Counted from the stretch's first letter, positions 3,985 to 47,838 are shown. The stretch is 64,000 nucleotides of DNA from Escherichia coli (GCA_025544715.1 GCA_025544715.1_4109.2); one strand, 5' to 3'. Program-made: numbers and translations. The notes: a model not told the origin generated them from the letters alone.

Positions 3985-4292
3985 TAACGAACCTCCACTT
4001 CTTGAGAAAGAGCATGAGTCAGTGCATTTGAATTCGAACCATTCATTTCACGCTGACATACAAACATAATGGCATCTTGTACTGAACCTGCGATTTCATA
4101 CTCACGACCTTCTGGATCAGTTACCAGATGTTCAACGATACAACCACCACGCAGTACTGATGCACCAGTACTTACACTAATTCTGTAACCTAAGAAATCA
4201 AACTGCATACATGCGTCAGTAGGTTTCATCCAATAACCGCTGTTTTGATTCAAATCGATGATTACAAAACCTTGAGTGTTAGTTTGAAACAT
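3984..4292 (-). CDS. hypothetical protein (102 aa)
   Basis: ORF track; GAGGAA-like RBS upstream. Confidence 0.45.
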   Translation of the reverse strand: MFQTNTQGFVIIDLNQNSGYWMKPTDACMQFDFLGYRISVSTGASVLRGGCIVEHLVTDPEGREYEIAGSVQDAIMFVCQREMNGSNSNALTHALSQEVEVR

Positions 4293-4310
4293 AGTTAATT
4301 CCTCATTTAA

Positions 4311-4378
4311 TTTAAAAGGGCGGGAACGCAGTGACGAGTACGATTATGCTGTCTTTCCTTTCACTGCATTCCCTTTTA
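4311..4378 (-). terminator. long imperfect hairpin followed by UUUU; terminator or 5-prime leader structure
   Basis: inverted repeat aaaagggcgggaacgcagtga / tcactgcattccctttt with ~25-nt loop. Confidence 0.35.
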
Positions 4379-4386
4379 TATAAAAC

Positions 4387-4415
4387 ATAATACTGCTATT
4401 ATTCAGTACTGTCAA
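4387..4415 (-). promoter_or_regulatory. sigma70-like promoter (TTGACA-17-TATTAT)
   Basis: read on minus strand; upstream of ORF 3984-4292. Confidence 0.45.
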
Positions 4416-4705
4416 TCGATATAAGTACCTTTTTTAACATCACAGACTTCTTCCATCCAATGTGGATTTTCGTTTTTATCAGTGAAGATTTGTTCTGCTT
4501 CTTCTTTTGTTTCAGCTAGGACAATACGATCCCCTTCATCCAAATCACGGATACGATACACTTTCAGTTCTTGTTTCTTCTCAAGGATATTACACAGTTC
4601 ACGTGCTTTTTCTTCATCGCACTTCCCTTCATTAGCATAAAACCAAATTGCTTTTTTAATAAGGTCACGTTCTTCTTTAGAAAAAGACATAATATTTCCT
4701 ATCAT
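4412..4705 (-). CDS. hypothetical protein (97 aa)
   Basis: ORF track. Confidence 0.45.
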   Translation of the reverse strand: MIGNIMSFSKEERDLIKKAIWFYANEGKCDEEKARELCNILEKKQELKVYRIRDLDEGDRIVLAETKEEAEQIFTDKNENPHWMEEVCDVKKGTYID

Positions 4706-4744
4706 TTGTTAAAGTGGATTTCGTTTGATATAAACATTATACAG

Positions 4745-4772
4745 TACTGATATCTTATGTCAAGTATTAATC
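4745..4772 (-). promoter_or_regulatory. sigma70-like promoter (TTGACA-16-TATAAT)
   Basis: minus-strand reading; CAGTACTG in spacer. Confidence 0.5.
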
Positions 4773-6494: not shown

Positions 6495-6558
6495 TGGATA
6501 TTCCTTAATGGTTAATCATCCATCTCTTCGAGATGTCTGTTCGCTTCTAATACTACGT

Positions 6559-6587
6559 ATTCTACGCGAATGATTAATAAATGTCAA
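6559..6587 (-). promoter_or_regulatory. sigma70-like promoter (TTGACA-17-TAGAAT)
   Basis: minus-strand reading; leader contains hairpin CATCTCgaaGAGATG. Confidence 0.45.
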
Positions 6588-7110
6588 GGACTTTTAATAT
6601 TGACGGGATTTGAGGAAGGGATTTTTCTTCCCCCCCACAAGGAGGGAAATTTGACGCTGATGGTATCAGAGCTATTGCATTGAAGATTACTCATAACGAG
6701 TGCGAAAGCGGGTCATCCTGTTTCTCTCTACTTCAGTTTCATATGACGGTCTACACTTTTAAACATAGTGTATCTTCATTAAGTATCTATGCAATCAAAT
6801 ACTTAATGTGAGTACTCAAATTCTGGACGCAACTTTCCTGTACAAAATTTGATAACTCTCCCTTAGATAATTCGTAAGGTGTTATCCTTATATGTCTATC
6901 AAGGAACCACCAGCTATCCTAACGTGGTTCTTTATACAGCCGCATTGCCGTGAGGGGTTCAAACTATGCCCACATCTAACGGGTTTCTTTTGCTGTTCGC
7001 ACTGTCGGACTGCTCAACTGCCCTCTACGTTTTCGAGTGGATCAGGTACATGAATATCATGCCAACAGAATTGTACAAGATAATTATATCACAAACTTTT
7101 ACTTCATCCC

Positions 7111-17462: not shown

Positions 17463-17880
17463 CCTTACTCATATTACTACGAATCACCCCACTAAGAAAA
17501 CATATTTTCCTTAATGTATCATAACTGATATTTGTAAGATCATGTACAAAATTCAACTGCAAGTACATTTCTTCAGTTAATTGATTAAATGTATCATCAA
17601 CACAAATGTTAGTATGTTCCGTTATGTCTATTTCTATATTATTTTCCCAAATATCAATGCTAACAGCATAGTCTGATGTATGCCTGGATTGAACTGAAAT
17701 AAAAATATTATTACTGTTGTATAATGTCTCGGTGTACCCATTCAAAAATGATCCAACGACAACATCAAAAATGCCATCTCTAATTGGGTTTTTTGTTTCA
17801 AACGTATCACTACAAACTTGACGGTATACAATGTCAACATACTTATCAATTAAAGTAAACAAATAACTCATTACATTCAC
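17452..17880 (-). CDS. EE-x-FFQ-x-S motif paralogue family protein (divergent)
   Basis: C-terminal LTEEMYLQLNFVHDL. Confidence 0.5.
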   Translation of the reverse strand: MNVMSYLFTLIDKYVDIVYRQVCSDTFETKNPIRDGIFDVVVGSFLNGYTETLYNSNNIFISVQSRHTSDYAVSIDIWENNIEIDITEHTNICVDDTFNQLTEEMYLQLNFVHDLTNISYDTLRKICFLSGVIRSNMSKDGK

Positions 17881-17887
17881 CTATATA

Positions 17888-17918
17888 AGAAAAAAGGCCG
17901 ATTCATTGAATCAGCCTT
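17888..17918 (-). terminator. hairpin plus U6; terminator overlapping promoter start region
   Basis: AAGGCTGATTCA / TGAATCGGCCTT inverted repeat followed by UUUUUU on minus strand. Confidence 0.4.
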
Positions 17919-17920
17919 AA

Positions 17921-17949
17921 GTATAACATGTAAGAAGTTAAAATGTCAA
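17921..17949 (-). promoter_or_regulatory. sigma70-like promoter (TTGACA-17-TTATAC)
   Basis: minus-strand reading. Confidence 0.4.
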
Positions 17950-18035
17950 CTTCTAAATTACAGCATCCAAGAGGAATAAAAAGATACTGTTAGAGGGTAA
18001 CGAATATAATGAATTTGAGGGTAATATCATTATAC

Positions 18036-18091
18036 GTAAAAAGTGATAGCTTCTATACATAAGGAGGAATCAGTACTGACTAGAAGCTATC
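18036..18091 (-). terminator. stem-loop (11-bp stem, 25-nt loop) plus ACUUUUUA
   Basis: GATAGCTTCTA ... TAGAAGCTATC inverted repeat just downstream of ORF 18105-18389. Confidence 0.4.
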
Positions 18092-18104: not shown

Positions 18105-18389
18105 TCAGTACTGAGTGTTTAGTTTAGGATGAGTATTTCCATCTTCGATTTGTTTTAGAATCGAGTCACGAATTTCTACTGCCCCTTGATAACTATATTT
18201 ATCTTTTGGGATCACCCATGTATATTCACCATCAGTGGTTTTAAAATCAATACATGGATTATCCCTGTATTCAGATGCAATGATTGAAATAACATGTAAT
18301 GAATTCAATGAATGATTTGTATAAGGATAATTGTTATTGTCTCTGAACGTGAATGTTTTTAGTTCATCAGGTGCAACAATGAATTCCAT
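18105..18389 (-). CDS. hypothetical protein (94 aa)
   Basis: ORF track. Confidence 0.4.
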   Translation of the reverse strand: MEFIVAPDELKTFTFRDNNNYPYTNHSLNSLHVISIIASEYRDNPCIDFKTTDGEYTWVIPKDKYSYQGAVEIRDSILKQIEDGNTHPKLNTQY

Positions 18390-18589: not shown

Positions 18590-18955
18590 CTAATTGTGGG
18601 TTTTAACTAAACGTGAGACAGCTAGTATAGCATTAACCTCATCCAATGTCAACCCACCAATGTCATTAATCATTGAGTACTGAAATAGTGATTCTTCAGT
18701 GTAATGGTAATCATGAGAAGCAATAAAGATTGCTGGTTTAGATGCATCCAAAATTATCTTTGTCATTGTACTATATATATCAAATTGATACAATAGATTT
18801 TCACTTGTATATGCTATGTAGATATTATTTGAATAGGCTGGATGTACCATTGTAAAACCATCATAACATAATATTTTTATGTTCGGATCGTCAAAATTGC
18901 CTGTATAAAGGTTATTACAAACATCTTGCATTATACGTACTATTAGACTAGTCAT
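18590..18955 (-). CDS. EE-x-FFQ-x-S motif paralogue family protein
   Basis: C-terminal YTEESLFQYSMINDIGGLTLDEVNAIL. Confidence 0.55.
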   Translation of the reverse strand: MTSLIVRIMQDVCNNLYTGNFDDPNIKILCYDGFTMVHPAYSNNIYIAYTSENLLYQFDIYSTMTKIILDASKPAIFIASHDYHYTEESLFQYSMINDIGGLTLDEVNAILAVSRLVKTHN

Positions 18956-19379
18956 TTAATGGATTTAGTACCTCTTCTGGAATCAACTTTTGAACTTTAA
19001 GTATAGCTTTAATGTCATCAAATGTCAATCCACGTAGGTCGTTTAGGAGGCAGTACTGGAAGAATTTTTCTTCAGTATTTATATCGTCAATATTCATTTG
19101 GATTGATTCGTTATCATCATCATAATCATAATCTTCATTATCACAATAATAACTTCTGAATATAACTCGTTCAAAATACACATCAAATGAATAAAAATGA
19201 TTATCGATTTCATATCCAAGAAAAATATTAAAACATGTATTTAAATCTGTTGTTTCATTTAAATTTGTGTCAAAACAAAAAACTCGCACTTCACCAATAT
19301 CATCTATATATTCATCTTTGAGTGACCATGTGTTGTTTTTTAATACATAGTTCACAAGTTCAACGATGTTGTATTTCAT
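18948..19379 (-). CDS. EE-x-FFQ-x-S motif paralogue family protein
   Basis: C-terminal NTEEKFFQYCLLNDLRGLTFDDIKAIL. Confidence 0.55.
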   Translation of the reverse strand: MKYNIVELVNYVLKNNTWSLKDEYIDDIGEVRVFCFDTNLNETTDLNTCFNIFLGYEIDNHFYSFDVYFERVIFRSYYCDNEDYDYDDDNESIQMNIDDINTEEKFFQYCLLNDLRGLTFDDIKAILKVQKLIPEEVLNPLND

Positions 19380-19391
19380 AGTGTACCTTTA

Positions 19392-19441
<50 letters not shown>

Positions 19442-21897: not shown

Positions 21898-22391
<494 letters not shown>

Positions 22392-22753: not shown

Positions 22754-22778
22754 ATTATATCAGTACTGAACTATTTAG

Positions 22779-22782
<4 letters not shown>
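22754..22782 (-). promoter_or_regulatory. sigma70-consensus promoter (TTGACT-17-TATAAT), cassette copy 2
   Basis: near-identical to the cassette at 21995-22023. Confidence 0.55.
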
Positions 22783-23910: not shown

Positions 23911-23927
23911 ATGTGATGTCCCATTAT

Positions 23928-27884: not shown

Positions 27885-27999
27885 TTTAATACCCTTTTAT
27901 TTCTTTTTTATGAAAAACCCTCATCATTGAGGAATGGTTTGCATTTTAATATCTGCCGATAACAAACATTATATCACAATATCTGTTCTTGTCCAATTT

Positions 28000-34800: not shown

Positions 34801-35241
34801 TTAATTGAACTCTACTTCTGGATAATGATTATAGAACATCTCACGAACTGCGTCAAGATGTTCTTTAAATTTCTCAATGTCATCGAGTGTTAATATAGTG
34901 TCACATATAGTACTTAACTGAAAGAGTGATTCTTCAGTACTGTTTAACTCCAAATCAAATGTAGATGACGATTCATCTGAGATAATATTACCACATATTT
35001 CAAATGTGTCAATATGAACATCATTCAGTTTATTACCAATATAATCATTATATATGAACACAAAAATGTATGATGATTTTTTAGTATAGGTTTTAACATC
35101 ATATGTTATGTAACATTTAAAGTCAAATGTATCATATTCCAATGATACAATTCCAACATCACGATATTCGTTTGTTTCACTTGTTAAATCCGGTATAGAT
35201 GTAATACCTAATAAATCAAAAAACTTTATTGGATTTAGCAT
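34801..35241 (-). CDS. EE-x-FFQ-x-S motif paralogue family protein
   Basis: C-terminal STEESLFQLSTICDTILTLDDIEKF. Confidence 0.55.
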   Translation of the reverse strand: MLNPIKFFDLLGITSIPDLTSETNEYRDVGIVSLEYDTFDFKCYITYDVKTYTKKSSYIFVFIYNDYIGNKLNDVHIDTFEICGNIISDESSSTFDLELNSTEESLFQLSTICDTILTLDDIEKFKEHLDAVREMFYNHYPEVEFN

Positions 35242-43798: not shown

Positions 43799-44560
43799 TT
43801 AATCCATTTTAAGCTTGTTTAGACAGAATGAAATCTGGATTGCTTCACGTGCTGCATCAAACAGTGGGTGATGTAACTCCAACCCATTAATCCCACACGT
43901 ATTTGCATATGTGATAAATTTATCCAACTGTACCGAAACGATTTCATCCATTTCAATACGAGCTTCTTCATTCAATAAACGTTTCAATGTGCGTGCATTT
44001 TCAGGTGCATCATACTTCCACAACTCACCAGCGTTCATTAGTTTTAAATGGTTTGCTTGTAAAATACTACAATCGAAGTTACATCCGTTGCCCCAGACTG
44101 AATGAGGAACTTCTTCACCATAATCATTGTAACGTAATTCTTTCCAGAAATCAACAATACTACTGTATGCAAAAAATCGTCGTGATTGACCATTCGGTCC
44201 ATACAGTTCAGGTGCTTTGAGTTTCATAGTACTGGAAACTTCACTATATGCATTAGGATATTCTTTCTGGCAGGTATTCATCCAAAAATCCATTGCACCT
44301 GCGTCTGATTTTAAACCAGCAGCAACTTGATCCTGGTATGGTAATTTAATATATAAGAACTGACGAATGTCATTTTCAGGTTTACTTGGAACTACTACTG
44401 CTGCGTAATTTGGGATAATAATATCATAACCTGAAAGTTCAGGTGTTCCAAGAGCTTCAATATCAACACTAATATGACGACGTTTCATAAGTTCGTTCCT
44501 TATCTGTACATTAAAAAGAGTGCGTTTCAATAATATTATTATATTAAAAAACGCACTCAT
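43799..44560 (-). CDS. 3-prime-to-5-prime exonuclease, DEDDh family (DexA-like) (253 aa)
   Basis: ISVDIEALGT (DxE motif) and LHHPLFDAAREA (H-x4-D motif). Confidence 0.5.
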   Translation of the reverse strand: MSAFFNIIILLKRTLFNVQIRNELMKRRHISVDIEALGTPELSGYDIIIPNYAAVVVPSKPENDIRQFLYIKLPYQDQVAAGLKSDAGAMDFWMNTCQKEYPNAYSEVSSTMKLKAPELYGPNGQSRRFFAYSSIVDFWKELRYNDYGEEVPHSVWGNGCNFDCSILQANHLKLMNAGELWKYDAPENARTLKRLLNEEARIEMDEIVSVQLDKFITYANTCGINGLELHHPLFDAAREAIQISFCLNKLKMD

Positions 44561-44570
44561 ATGTCAACTA

Positions 44571-45707: not shown

Positions 45708-45755
45708 TTAGTATTCCTCGTTTAATTTAATATGATGTGCTGCTCTGTGATAAAC

Positions 45756-45784
45756 ATTATACGGGCAGCACGTATGATAGTCAA
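45756..45784 (-). promoter_or_regulatory. sigma70-consensus promoter (TTGACT-17-TATAAT)
   Basis: minus-strand reading upstream of 44571-45707. Confidence 0.55.
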
Positions 45785-47019: not shown

Positions 47020-47838
47020 TTAGTGCATCCTTTTGTTACTTTTATCCTTGTACCATACAAATGTCTTGACAGGTGGATATTTTTCATTCTTTGGTGGTTC
47101 AGGCATGTCGTATACAGTTGCATTTCTAAACTTAAGAATGTATGTGTCCATCAAACGGATTATACAATAGTTTAAACATTTTTGTGCTCTTTCTTTCCAA
47201 AAATGTTTATATGGTTCTGGACAACCAAGATAATCAAGTTTATACATACTCATTGCAACTTGCATAAATCTTTGGGCCGAGAATTTACGCTTGTCGATTT
47301 TACTTGCCCTATGTTGATCACAGGTCCAGCTTGATACTCCAGGTAAATGACAAAACAAATCAAAACTAACCATACTATCAAAGTATTTGTTATGACCATG
47401 TAACTCACCATAAAATACTGCTTCAGATACTGTATCATATAATGAGAAATTTGAATGTATATGCTCATTATCAAAAATACTTTTTAAATCTTTATAAGTT
47501 TCTGGAACTGGTGGTTCAGGTAATACTTCACCAAATACTTCAACACACCATATCTTCCATAAACCTTTTGTAAATTTATTTTCTAAATCTCTATCACTAT
47601 CTATATAAAAAGTTTTTTCATTTATGAAAACTTTTCTTGCCATGTATGCTTTAAAAATTGCATCTGGATCAATGTCTTCACGATTTACATCATCCCAGCC
47701 TTTACCAATTCTTGAAATTTCAAATCTACGCATATACATGCGACATGCTAAATCTTTAGTAAGGCTGCGACGATACTTTTCATCCTGATGTAATTTGGTT
47801 GTTTCATGAAGAGATTTAAGCATATTTAAAATTCTCAT
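47020..47838 (-). CDS. hypothetical protein (272 aa)
   Basis: ORF track. Confidence 0.5.
   Translation of the reverse strand: MRILNMLKSLHETTKLHQDEKYRRSLTKDLACRMYMRRFEISRIGKGWDDVNREDIDPDAIFKAYMARKVFINEKTFYIDSDRDLENKFTKGLWKIWCVEVFGEVLPEPPVPETYKDLKSIFDNEHIHSNFSLYDTVSEAVFYGELHGHNKYFDSMVSFDLFCHLPGVSSWTCDQHRASKIDKRKFSAQRFMQVAMSMYKLDYLGCPEPYKHFWKERAQKCLNYCIIRLMDTYILKFRNATVYDMPEPPKNEKYPPVKTFVWYKDKSNKRMH

What the first reader, a model, noticed from the sequence alone, without database searches (positions are those of the whole stretch)
4311..4415. Promoter immediately followed by a long hairpin ahead of a gene (also at 17888-17949)
In two places a promoter -10 lies just upstream of a strong hairpin with a U-tract, which in turn sits just upstream of an RBS and start codon. 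Either the hairpin terminates the upstream operon and overlaps the next promoter, or the hairpin is part of the new transcript as an RNase III site or stabilising 5-prime structure.
Basis: seen in the sequence. Interest (0 to 1): 0.35.

Follow-up and report, generated by a model that had tools for sequence, protein, structure and literature searches.

The report
Phage early promoter–hairpin intergenic cassettes
Both sites are real, conserved promoter-plus-hairpin units between early genes of a 121Q/PBECO4-like jumbo coliphage; one is a terminator with the next promoter built into it, the other is a 5'-leader hairpin, and both resemble the promoter/stem-loop cassettes (PeSLs) already known from T4-type phages, so the finding is largely ordinary.

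Summary
The window is the early-gene region of an Asteriusvirus (121Q/PBECO4-like jumbo coliphage), and nearly all genes lie on the minus strand. Both features exist as described when read on that strand.

**Site 2 (17953-17888).**
- An extended -10 (TGtTATACT) ends 2 nt before a canonical intrinsic terminator (11-bp stem, 3-nt loop, U6).
- Every plausible start site falls inside the terminator's 5' arm. Upstream transcripts would form the full hairpin (-14.3 kcal/mol). Transcripts from the embedded promoter would not (-5.3 to 0).
- The cassette is almost invariant across the genus, with compensatory changes, while the downstream protein falls to 29-44% identity.

**Site 1 (4415-4290).**
- The 13-bp hairpin with a 26-nt loop starts about 6-8 nt after the predicted start site, so it lies inside the new transcript.
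- It lacks terminator features: the loop is too long, and there are only 4 U, set 4 nt away from the stem. It is also too short for RNase III.
- Its 5' arm and loop are invariant in 10 phages. The only stem changes are GC to GU.
- It is most likely a 5'-leader hairpin, acting as a stabiliser or weak attenuator.

Indel joints between related phages fall in these promoters, as they do at PeSL cassettes of T4-type phages. Verdict: a new member of a known kind, of modest interest.

The parts
4410..4415 (-). Site 1 -35 hexamer TTGACA, overlapping the stop codon TGA (4414-4412) of ORF 4705..4412.
   Evidence: TTGAC is invariant in 10 related phages.
4387..4392 (-). Site 1 -10 hexamer TATTAT (TATAAT in most relatives). 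It is followed by GTTT(T)AT, a discriminator shared with several other promoters of the window. Predicted start site at about 4381-4379.
   Evidence: The start site is inferred from the usual 6-9 nt distance and has not been mapped.
4322..4373 (-). Site 1 leader hairpin: 13-bp stem (4373-4361 pairing with 4334-4322) and a 26-nt loop (4360-4335).
   Evidence: Energy -22.9 kcal/mol, z = -5.5. The stem is 100% paired in 10 phages; there are three one-sided C>U changes (GC>GU), all in the 3' arm, and the 5' arm and loop are invariant. Identity to JNE01 is 51/52, against 88-90% for the flanking CDS. It is single-copy.
4290..4321 (-). Site 1 spacer GCCC, UUUU, the A/U-rich translation-initiation region with SD GAGG (4304-4301), and ATG 4292-4290 of a 102-aa ORFan.
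   Evidence: The 18-mer TTAAATTAAAYGAGGAAT recurs at 45713-45730 ahead of another gene. The GCCC and U run vary among relatives.
4736..4763 (-). Neighbouring promoter P4763 (TTGACA-16-TATAAT). It shares the 19-mer GTATAATGTTTATATCAAA (window 4742-4724) with the site 1 promoter as it reads in most relatives (the window's own copy reads GTATTATGTTTTATATAAAA). It is the partner in the crossover that deleted ORF 4412-4705 in CMSTMSU-type phages.
17934..17953 (-). Site 2 hairpin A, GAAGUUGA-CAUU-UUAACUUC, which contains the -35 TTGACA (17949-17944).
   Evidence: The 8 pairs are 94.5% paired in 7 phages, with 3 compensatory double changes, all in phage A4.
17920..17928 (-). Site 2 extended -10, TGtTATACT.
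   Evidence: It is invariant in all 7 lineages aligned.
17888..17918 (-). Site 2 hairpin B, a canonical intrinsic terminator: 11-bp stem, 3-nt loop, then UUUUUUCUU. The predicted start site of the embedded promoter (17914-17911) lies inside its 5' arm.
   Evidence: It is annotated as a terminator in G17 and UE-S1. It is 98.7% paired, with one compensatory U-A>A-U change (JNE01) and one U.G>U-A change (ph0011), and the loop varies. Hairpin energy is -14.3 for upstream RNA and -5.3/-3.1/-3.1/0 for starts at +6 to +9.
17869..17882 (-). Site 2 SD AGGUG and ATG 17871-17869. This is the first gene of a block of nine contiguous genes that ends at the bidirectional terminator 14091-14067.
18045..18091 (-). 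Upstream long-loop hairpin in the same intergenic region: 11-bp stem and 25-nt loop containing CAGUACUG and CCUCC, followed by ACUUUUU.
   Evidence: Energy -17.4 kcal/mol, z = -4.6. It is conserved in 6 of 7 lineages.
44513..44567 (-). Sister cassette: -35 TTGACA, then an 11-bp hairpin whose loop holds the -10 TATAAT, then UUUUU.
   Evidence: Energy -18.7 kcal/mol, z = -7.2. Coordinates.
27915..27995 (-). Sister cassette with the same order as the finding: promoter (27995-27968), then a terminator-like hairpin plus U5 (27940-27915) in the leader, then RBS and ATG 27884.

Best explanation
Both sites are composite promoter/stem-loop intergenic cassettes of the early, ORFan-rich region of an Asteriusvirus jumbo phage. 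They are transcribed by host sigma-70 RNA polymerase from the minus strand.

Site 2 is a reset junction.
- RNA arriving from upstream contains the full 11-bp hairpin plus U6 and terminates there.
- The promoter packed immediately upstream (-10 ending 2 nt before the stem) starts transcription inside the 5' arm.
- Its own RNA therefore cannot form the terminator and reads into the next nine genes.

Site 1 differs.
- The hairpin starts about 6-8 nt after the start site and is part of the new mRNA.
- It is not built like a terminator. It most likely acts as a 5'-leader structure that protects or regulates the downstream mRNA, with at most weak attenuation.

In both cases the conserved promoter sequences also serve as crossover points through which related phages gain, lose or swap the small genes between them.

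Shown: the sequences, the folds, the conservation and the indel joints. Inferred: the start sites, termination, read-through and stabilisation.
For: Identity and context: 94-97% identity to 121Q/PBECO4-type phages. The flanking proteins are ORFans.

Promoters as a class: 31 near-consensus matches on the minus strand, 2 on the plus strand, and 2.6 expected.

Site 2:
- Canonical terminator geometry, annotated as a terminator by others.
- The cassette TGTTATACTTAAGGCTGATTC...GAATCGGCCTTTTTTCTT is nearly invariant in 7 lineages. Meanwhile the downstream protein is 29-44% identical and the upstream gene in JNE01 is unrelated.
- Pairing is 96.9%, with 4 compensatory pairs, and 0 of 500 shuffles reach that.
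- Hairpin energy collapses from -14.3 to between -5.3 and 0 kcal/mol for starts 6-9 nt after the -10.
- RNA starting at G17912 is unstructured, z = -0.65.
- No other promoter match of at least 11/12 lies between 17894 and 12914.

Site 1:
- The hairpin is stable.
- Identity to JNE01/Turkey5 is 51/52, against 88-90% for the flanking CDS.
- All three stem substitutions are C>U, which keeps pairing only in the sense RNA.
- The hairpin is retained behind three different upstream promoter and gene contexts.
- The terminator scan did not call it, and the U run is degraded in UE-S1.

Recombination:
- The CMSTMSU-type deletion of ORF 4412-4705 has its joint in the 19-nt sequence shared by the two promoters.
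- Further joints lie at P19703, at P22782 (a mini-ORF flanked by two promoter copies) and at the promoter near 23922.

Literature: the PeSL papers describe the same architecture, including stem-loops just downstream of the -10 (PMC2839356; PMC4122927).
Against: - No transcript data exist for this phage group in the searched literature. Start sites, termination and read-through are all inferred.
- As a class, the 31 promoter windows are not more structured than random windows (Mann-Whitney p = 0.40; z below -2 in 6 of 31 windows against 6% of controls). 'Promoter plus stem-loop' therefore describes a subset, not all promoters.
- Site 1 has no compensatory double changes. The invariance of its 26-nt loop and 5' arm is not explained by a simple stabiliser or attenuator role.
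- A 5' single-stranded overhang of about 6-8 nt is longer than ideal for protection against 5'-end-dependent RNase E. This point rests on general knowledge and was not tested.
- Three of the four compensatory pairs at site 2 come from a single genome (A4).
Confidence: 0.6

Rival explanations
1. The site 1 hairpin is a real, if leaky, intrinsic terminator or attenuator. It damps transcription arriving from P4763 and from its own promoter, as proposed for PeSL stem-loops.
For: The stem is stable and GC-closed, with an A-run before and a U-run after (AAAAGGG...CCCUUUU). This resembles the A3-4G3-loop-C3T3-4 stem-loops reported for nt-1 PeSLs. A similar promoter-then-terminator order occurs at 27995-27915.
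Against: The loop is 26 nt. Only four U are present, and they begin 5 nt after the stem. The terminator scan did not call it. The U run and the GCCC spacer are the least conserved part (TATT in UE-S1, GTAC in ph0011). The next promoter match of at least 11/12 downstream is 3.9 kb away, so efficient termination would leave about a dozen genes without transcripts.
Confidence: 0.2
2. The site 1 hairpin is a tRNA-derived minihelix. A 7+6 bp acceptor/T-like helix followed by R-C-C would be cut by RNase P at G4373, leaving a hairpin flush with the 5' end of the mRNA.
For: The continuous 13-bp helix starts with a G-C pair and is followed by GCC or ACC in 8 of 10 phages. Homologues of the downstream gene in other genera sit directly behind tRNA-like elements: Hallingskeid, Rfam tRNA 37.1 bits, then ACCC-TTAA; RaK2, pseudo-tRNA 30.4 bits. 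Minihelices are known RNase P model substrates; this last point comes from my own knowledge and was not checked.
Against: There is no tRNA signal at site 1 from Rfam or ARAGORN. The loop is 26 nt and has no T-loop motif. R-C-C is absent in ph0011 and shifted in UE-S1. XaC1 has a plain short leader.
Confidence: 0.08
3. Site 1 encodes a short RNA of about 65 nt (promoter, hairpin, U4). Its invariant loop would pair with a phage or host target, and the downstream mRNA would arise by read-through.
For: Promoter, hairpin and U-run form the minimal layout of a small-RNA gene. The 5' arm and loop (39 nt) are invariant in 10 phages, whereas the 3' arm and tail vary.
Against: There is no significant complementarity between the loop and any translation-initiation region in the window: best duplex -16.7 kcal/mol, against -17.1 +/- 1.8 for shuffled loops. 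The terminator is weak, and there is no Rfam match. Only 64 kb of the phage was searched, and no host sequence.
Confidence: 0.07
4. The hairpins are RNase III processing sites, as in T7 early mRNA.
For: They are intergenic stem-loops in a polycistronic phage early region.
Against: The helices have only 13 bp (site 1) and 11 bp (site 2). Typical substrates have about two helical turns (general knowledge). Site 2 has full terminator geometry.
Confidence: 0.04
5. The inverted repeats act at the DNA level, as operators for a phage regulator or as cruciforms, rather than as RNA hairpins.
For: Hairpin A of site 2 overlaps the -35. Several other promoters have inverted repeats around the -10. The palindrome CAGTACTG is enriched and sits in promoter spacers.
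Against: The substitutions are strand-asymmetric. GC>GU and U.G>U-A changes keep pairing in the sense RNA but create A.C mismatches or unequal half-sites in DNA. At site 1 the half-sites are 39 bp apart centre to centre.
Confidence: 0.05

Closest known systems
PeSLs (promoter-early stem-loops), the composite promoter/terminator cassettes of T4-type phages RB49/phi1, PST/T4 and nt-1/KVP40 (Arbiol et al. 2010, PMC2839356; Comeau et al. 2014, PMC4122927)
   Same: - A near-consensus sigma-70 promoter, a stable stem-loop, then the SD and start codon, all packed into about 100 bp between small ORFan genes of a plastic early region.
- Stem-loops occur over the -35, around the -10, or just after the -10. 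Site 2 and the cassettes at 44567, 45784, 30495, 9385 and 34856 match these positions.
- The stop codon of the upstream gene lies next to the -35 (site 1).
- Indels between related phages have their joints in the cassettes.
- The outer frame AAAAGGG...CCCUUUU at site 1 resembles the nt-1 stem-loop consensus.
   Different: - The host phage is a Rak2-like jumbo phage (Asteriusvirus), for which I found no PeSL report.
- Only a minority of the 31 promoters carry a strong stem-loop, and there is no class-wide enrichment.
- The site 1 hairpin lies fully downstream of the predicted start site, has a 26-nt loop of invariant sequence and is single-copy. None of this is part of the PeSL description.
- Terminator activity, promoter activity and mini-circles were shown experimentally for PeSLs and are untested here.
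Rho-independent (intrinsic) terminators of E. coli and its phages
   Same: Site 2 hairpin B has an 11-bp GC-containing stem, a 3-nt loop and U6 directly after the stem. Its energy (-14 kcal/mol) is in the range of the other terminators of the window.
   Different: A promoter is fused upstream so that its start site lies inside the stem. Site 1 fails the loop and U-tract criteria.
5'-terminal stem-loops that stabilise bacterial and phage mRNAs (for example the ompA 5' UTR; from general knowledge)
   Same: At site 1, a stable hairpin lies close to the 5' end of the transcript, upstream of an unstructured A/U-rich ribosome-binding region.
   Different: The predicted 5' overhang of about 6-8 nt is longer than in classical protective hairpins. 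The loop sequence is conserved. No half-life data exist.
RpoD-like early promoters with UP-like elements, predicted in the Rak2-like phages CBB and GAP32 (Buttimer et al. 2017, PMC5259590)
   Same: The same class of host-type promoters is concentrated upstream of short hypothetical genes in the presumed early region.
   Different: That work listed promoters and terminators separately. It did not describe fused promoter/stem-loop units or their link to indels.

Membership tests
PeSL cassette | Strong sigma-70-like early promoter (near TTGACA-N17-TATAAT) | tested here: met
   Site 1 scores 11/12 (12/12 in most relatives). Site 2 scores 11/12 and has an extended -10. As a class there are 31 matches against 2.6 expected, and they are strand-specific.
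PeSL cassette | Stable stem-loop placed upstream of the -35, over the -35, between the boxes, over the -10, or just after the -10 before the start site | tested here: met
   Site 2 meets it: hairpin A lies over the -35 and hairpin B starts 2 nt after the -10. Sister cassettes at 44567, 45784, 30495 and 9385 enclose the -10. Site 1 does not meet it strictly, because its hairpin starts 14 nt after the -10, downstream of the predicted start site.
PeSL cassette | [quoted passage not shown] | tested here: inconclusive
   At site 1 the stop codon overlaps the -35, an A-rich run lies upstream, and the unit is 126 bp from -35 to ATG. At site 2 the upstream stop codon is about 155 nt away. Class-wide AT content upstream of the -35 is 0.71, against 0.67 for the genome.
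PeSL cassette | Repeated motif family concentrated in a hyperplastic region, in front of ORFans | tested here: inconclusive
   The flanking genes are ORFans. Subsets of promoters share TATAATGTTTAT, a 29-nt promoter repeat (22023/22782/23191) and an identical 18-nt ribosome-binding region. However, stem-loops are not enriched over all promoters, and both hairpins of the finding are single-copy.
PeSL cassette | Insertion, deletion or replacement joints between related phages map to the cassettes | tested here: met
   The deletion of ORF 4412-4705 has its joint in the shared GTATAATGTTTATATCAAA. Further joints lie at P19703, at P22782 (insert flanked by two promoter copies) and at the promoter near 23922. 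Together these account for at least 4 of the 11 joints found against CMSTMSU over 33 kb. This was not compared with a formal null model.
PeSL cassette | Promoter activity and terminator activity shown in vivo; mini-circle formation | not testable with these tools
   These need reporter assays, transcript mapping and PCR on phage DNA.
Intrinsic terminator | GC-containing stem of 5-14 bp, loop of 3-8 nt, and at least 5 U within 8 nt directly after the stem | tested here: met
   Site 2 is called by the scan, with 11 pairs, a 3-nt loop and a TTTTCTTATA tail after a stem that already ends in UU. Site 1 does not meet it: the loop is 26 nt, the four U start 5 nt after the stem, and the scan did not call it.
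RNase III processing site | About 20 bp or more of largely continuous double-stranded RNA | tested here: not met
   The helices have 13 bp (site 1) and 11 bp (site 2).
tRNA or tRNA-like element | Match to the tRNA covariance model or to ARAGORN | tested here: not met
   There is no hit at either site. By contrast, the Hallingskeid leader scores 37.1 bits.
Any curated RNA family (Rfam 15) | Score at or above the family's gathering threshold | tested here: not met
   The best sub-threshold hits score 16-20 bits against thresholds of 41 and above.

The most novel reading that the evidence does not exclude
The site 1 hairpin may be more than a passive structure. It could be a sequence-specific RNA element derived from a tRNA gene: an acceptor-like minihelix followed by R-C-C. 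Host RNase P, or a phage factor, would recognise it to set the 5' end, the stability or the translation of the downstream early mRNA. This would explain why its 39-nt 5' arm and loop are invariant across the genus, and why homologues of the same gene in other genera sit directly behind tRNA-like elements.
Probability: 0.1. Interest if true: 0.55.

Novelty: new member of a known kind. Interest (0 to 1): 0.28.

Why it matters
If confirmed, the finding extends the PeSL idea from T4-type phages to Rak2-like jumbo phages. The idea is that small promoter/terminator cassettes both insulate short early transcription units and act as crossover points for shuffling ORFan genes.

Site 2 gives a clean, testable example of a compact design rule: placing the start site inside a terminator's 5' arm makes the terminator act only on incoming transcription. 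That rule is useful for annotating these poorly understood 350-kb genomes and for synthetic insulator parts.

It does not open a long-standing question. A phage transcription specialist would find it expected rather than surprising.

Tried and rejected
1. Rfam, at gathering threshold over the whole window and at permissive E-values on both sites, found only the tRNA genes and no family at either site.
2. I tested whether promoters as a class carry stem-loops. They do not (p = 0.40 on energies, p = 0.14 on z-scores), so I do not claim a universal promoter-hairpin motif.
3. I looked for further copies of either hairpin in the window, in 50,697 phage records, in IMG/VR and in metagenomes. There is one copy per Asteriusvirus genome and no new variants.
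4. I searched for a trans target of the site 1 loop among the 127 translation-initiation regions of the window. The result was no better than for shuffled loops.
5. I asked whether the downstream gene always has a structured leader. The RaK2 and Hallingskeid leaders do not fold better than shuffles (z = -0.58 and -0.56), and XaC1 has a plain leader. I therefore dropped 'conserved structured leader' as an argument and kept only the tRNA-like observation.
6. Pfam and PHROGs searches on six flanking proteins returned only families of unknown function. The 'sigma-70 family' label on the upstream ORF in phage A4 has no Pfam support.
7. Small ORFs inside the hairpin (MQ*, a 6-codon GTG ORF, and a 10-14 codon plus-strand ORF) were read by eye. 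I dismissed them as too short or not conserved in length.
8. A full-length comparison with JNE01 was too divergent (70-80% identity) for fine breakpoint mapping. I used CMSTMSU instead.
9. Literature searches found no transcript mapping for Asteriusvirus.

Full report
**Context.** The window is 94-97% identical to the 121Q/PBECO4 group of jumbo coliphages, genus Asteriusvirus, which are Rak2-like. G+C content is about 33%. In my ORF selection, 119 of 127 ORFs lie on the minus strand. The window also holds six tRNA genes. The region matches what the phage CBB paper called the presumed early region: many short hypothetical genes behind RpoD-like promoters. The six proteins flanking the two sites match only PHROG families of unknown function and have no Pfam domain.

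**Observation, site 1 (minus strand).**
- The stop codon TGA (4414-4412) of ORF 4705..4412 overlaps a -35 TTGACA (4415-4410). After 17 nt comes the -10 TATTAT (4392-4387).
- Fourteen nt later a hairpin begins: GGGAAUGCAGUGA (4373-4361), a 26-nt loop, and UCACUGCGUUCCC (4334-4322). Its energy is -22.9 kcal/mol, z = -5.5, and 0 of 200 shuffles fold as well.
- It is followed by GCCC, UUUU, an A/U-rich stretch, the SD GAGG and ATG 4292.
- The description is therefore correct, but the U run is short and not adjacent to the stem.

**Observation, site 2.**
- The elements are -35 TTGACA (17949-17944), an 18-nt spacer and an extended -10 TGtTATACT (17928-17920).
- One unpaired nt later (the stem starts 2 nt after the -10) comes the hairpin AAGGCUGAUUC-AAU-GAAUCGGCCUU (17918-17894; -14.6 kcal/mol, z = -5.5). 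It runs into UUUUUUCUU, then AGGUG and ATG 17871.
- The consensus scan calls it a terminator. The GenBank records of phages G17 and UE-S1 annotate a terminator at the same place.

**More than chance?** Promoter matches of at least 11/12 number 31 on the minus strand, 2 on the plus strand, and 2.6 +/- 1.6 per strand in dinucleotide shuffles. Most lie 31-49 nt upstream of a start codon. The promoters are therefore real as a class. Co-location of a promoter and a hairpin in one intergenic gap is not remarkable by itself. The conservation described next is what makes these units meaningful.

**Comparative evidence, site 2.**
- In seven lineages the block TGTTATACTTAAGGCTGATTC-loop-GAATCGGCCTTTTTTCTT is almost invariant, while the loop varies in sequence and length.
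- JNE01 has a compensatory U-A to A-U change. In ph0011 the U.G pair becomes U-A.
- A second helix, GAAGUUGA/UUAACUUC, contains the -35. In phage A4 it is rebuilt from a different sequence (GGUAUUGA/UCAAUGCC).
- Over both helices, 96.9% of cells pair and four pairs show double changes. None of 500 shuffles reaches this, and slid registers pair at 23-56%. A caveat is that three of the four double changes come from one genome.
- The downstream protein is only 44%, 44% and 29% identical in fEgEco12, A4 and JNE01. The upstream gene of JNE01 is unrelated.
- In a 64-kb comparison with JNE01, the intergenic cassette (18114-17865) is an isolated island of alignable DNA.

**Comparative evidence, site 1.**
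- The hairpin occurs once in each of 36 Asteriusvirus records and nowhere else.
- In ten aligned phages the 5' arm and the whole loop (39 nt) are invariant. The 3' arm has three variable positions, all C to U, which turn G-C into G.U. Pairing stays at 100%, and only in the sense RNA.
- There are no double compensatory changes, so structure is supported only by this asymmetry.
- Against JNE01/Turkey5 the hairpin is 51/52 identical, whereas the flanking coding sequences are 88-90% identical. The encoded protein is 95% identical, so most coding differences are synonymous.
- The GCCC spacer and the U run are the most variable part: ACCC, AACC-UAUU, GUAC.
- The hairpin is kept behind three different upstream contexts: its own promoter, the P4763 promoter (CMSTMSU, ph0011, Ecwhy_1), and a third promoter in Turkey5.

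**Mechanism, site 2 (inferred).**
- E. coli RNA polymerase usually starts 6-9 nt after the -10 and prefers a purine after a pyrimidine. This is general knowledge.
- All of those positions (17914-17911) lie inside the 5' arm.
- RNA from upstream can form the full hairpin (-14.3 kcal/mol) next to U6. RNA starting at +6, +7, +8 or +9 retains -5.3, -3.1, -3.1 or 0 kcal/mol, and the residual stem no longer abuts the U run.
- RNA starting at G17912 shows no significant structure (z = -0.65).
- No other promoter match of at least 11/12 exists before 12914. Nine contiguous genes follow, down to the bidirectional terminator at 14091-14067.
- The unit therefore looks like a reset point: it stops incoming transcription and restarts at a defined level.

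**Mechanism, site 1 (inferred, less secure).**
- The predicted start at about 4381-4379 puts the whole hairpin into the transcript, for any start from +5 to +10.
- It is a poor terminator on the standard criteria, and at 13 bp it is too short for RNase III.
- Efficient termination would also starve the downstream genes, because the next promoter match of at least 11/12 is P452, 3.9 kb away.
- I therefore favour a 5'-leader hairpin that stabilises or modulates the mRNA, with weak attenuation possible.
- The invariant loop is not explained by this reading. That is the main open point.

**The wider pattern.**
- Other cassettes in the window fuse promoters and stem-loops. At 44567 an 11-bp hairpin holds the -10 in its loop and ends in U5 (-18.7 kcal/mol, z = -7.2).
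- At 45784, 30495, 9385, 36932 and 51860 inverted repeats enclose the -10. At 34856 a repeat encloses the -35.
- At 27995 the order is promoter, terminator-like hairpin, RBS, as in the finding.
- At 47034/46993 and 58644/58613 the order is terminator then promoter.
- However, the 31 promoter windows as a class are not more structured than random windows. This is a subset, not a rule.
- Some promoters share extended sequence: TATAATGTTTAT, a 29-nt repeat at 22023/22782/23191, and an identical 18-nt ribosome-binding region at 4315-4298 and 45730-45713.

**Recombination.**
- In CMSTMSU-type phages ORF 4412-4705 is missing. The joint lies in GTATAATGTTTATATCAAA, which CMSTMSU shares exactly with window P4763 on one side and with the site 1 promoter of phage A4 on the other (the window's own site 1 copy differs at three positions).
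- Over 33 kb against CMSTMSU I found 11 rearrangement joints. At least four lie in promoter sequence:
  - the joint above;
  - P19703, where homology ends after the -35;
  - P22782, where a 9-codon mini-gene with its own SD is flanked by two copies of the -35 plus spacer;
  - the promoter near 23922, where a 288-nt insert is flanked by similar -35 regions.
- I did not test this against a formal null model.

**Comparison with known systems.**
- The closest described system is the PeSL of T4-type phages. It has strong sigma-70 promoters and stem-loops that act as terminators. The stem-loops sit in five positions relative to the promoter, including just after the -10. The cassettes lie between the stop codon and the SD of ORFans in hyperplastic regions, and they mediate modular shuffling.
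- Site 2 and several sister cassettes fit this description. Site 1 fits only loosely.
- I found no report of PeSLs in Rak2-like phages in the searchable literature.

**Side lead.** Homologues of the gene behind site 1 follow tRNA-like elements in Erwinia phage Hallingskeid (Rfam tRNA 37.1 bits) and in RaK2 (30.4 bits). The site 1 helix is 13 bp, starts with G-C and is followed by R-C-C in 8 of 10 phages. A tRNA-derived minihelix recognised by RNase P is therefore conceivable. No tRNA model matches site 1, and I rate this reading at about 0.1.

**Verdict.** These are new members of a known kind of phage regulatory cassette, and the interest is modest.

Noticed in passing
whole window; e.g. 4404-4411, 4742-4749, 18071-18078, 18106-18113, 22002-22009, 22761-22768: The palindrome CAGTACTG occurs 27 times against 0.6 expected. 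Its core AGTACT occurs 144 times in 64 kb, and every top 8-mer under an order-2 Markov model contains it. It is found in all three reading frames and is about 3-fold enriched in intergenic DNA. It often sits in promoter spacers just before the -10 or next to the -35, and the same is seen in RaK2 and XaC1 promoters. Several copies come in pairs 35-120 nt apart. Its function is unknown.
   Followed up: partly
18045-18091 (minus strand): A second long-loop hairpin lies upstream of site 2. It has an 11-bp stem and a 25-nt loop containing CAGUACUG and CCUCC, and is followed by ACUUUUU. Its energy is -17.4 kcal/mol with z = -4.6, and it is conserved in 6 of 7 lineages. It has the same 'long stem, about 26-nt loop' shape as the site 1 hairpin.
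   Followed up: partly
6495-6965: A 471-nt intergenic region is unusually G+C-rich and strongly folded (MFE -133 kcal/mol for the 541-nt segment shown). It includes CCCTCC/GGGGGG runs and lies upstream of promoter P6587. No Rfam family reaches its threshold there.
   Followed up: no
19380-19440 (minus strand); L021 20230-20273: A truncated tRNA-like sequence (GCCGACTTAGCTCAGTAGGTCACCAGTTCGATTCCGGTAGTCGGCA) sits in an intergenic region. CMSTMSU carries an extra tRNA-like copy at the same place, and the indel joint lies in the shared tRNA 3' end.
   Followed up: partly
18624-18652 and 19000-19028 (minus strand): Two 11/12 promoter matches (TTGACA-17-TATACT) lie inside the C-terminal coding regions of two adjacent ORFs. 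There they encode a shared peptide motif, GLT(F/L)D..AIL. They may be true internal promoters, or a protein motif that mimics one.
   Followed up: no
L023 282-364; L006 341-416 and 447-640: Homologues of the gene behind site 1 are preceded by tRNA-like elements in other genera. In Erwinia phage Hallingskeid the match is Rfam tRNA at 37.1 bits with a 16-nt insert in the anticodon loop, although ARAGORN does not call it. In RaK2 there is a pseudo-tRNA followed by about 190 nt that contain a T-arm-like GACAGTTCGATTCTGTC.
   Followed up: partly
L021 23200-23330 (CMSTMSU), equivalent to window 22754-22782: CMSTMSU has a 9-codon mini-ORF (MFKDERPDL) with a strong SD. It is inserted between two copies of the promoter's -35 plus spacer.
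   Followed up: no
4412-4705 (minus strand): The 97-aa ORF upstream of site 1 is annotated in phage A4 as 'sigma-70 family RNA polymerase sigma factor'. It has no Pfam hit at E <= 0.1 and matches only a PHROG of unknown function. It is absent from CMSTMSU-type phages.
   Followed up: partly
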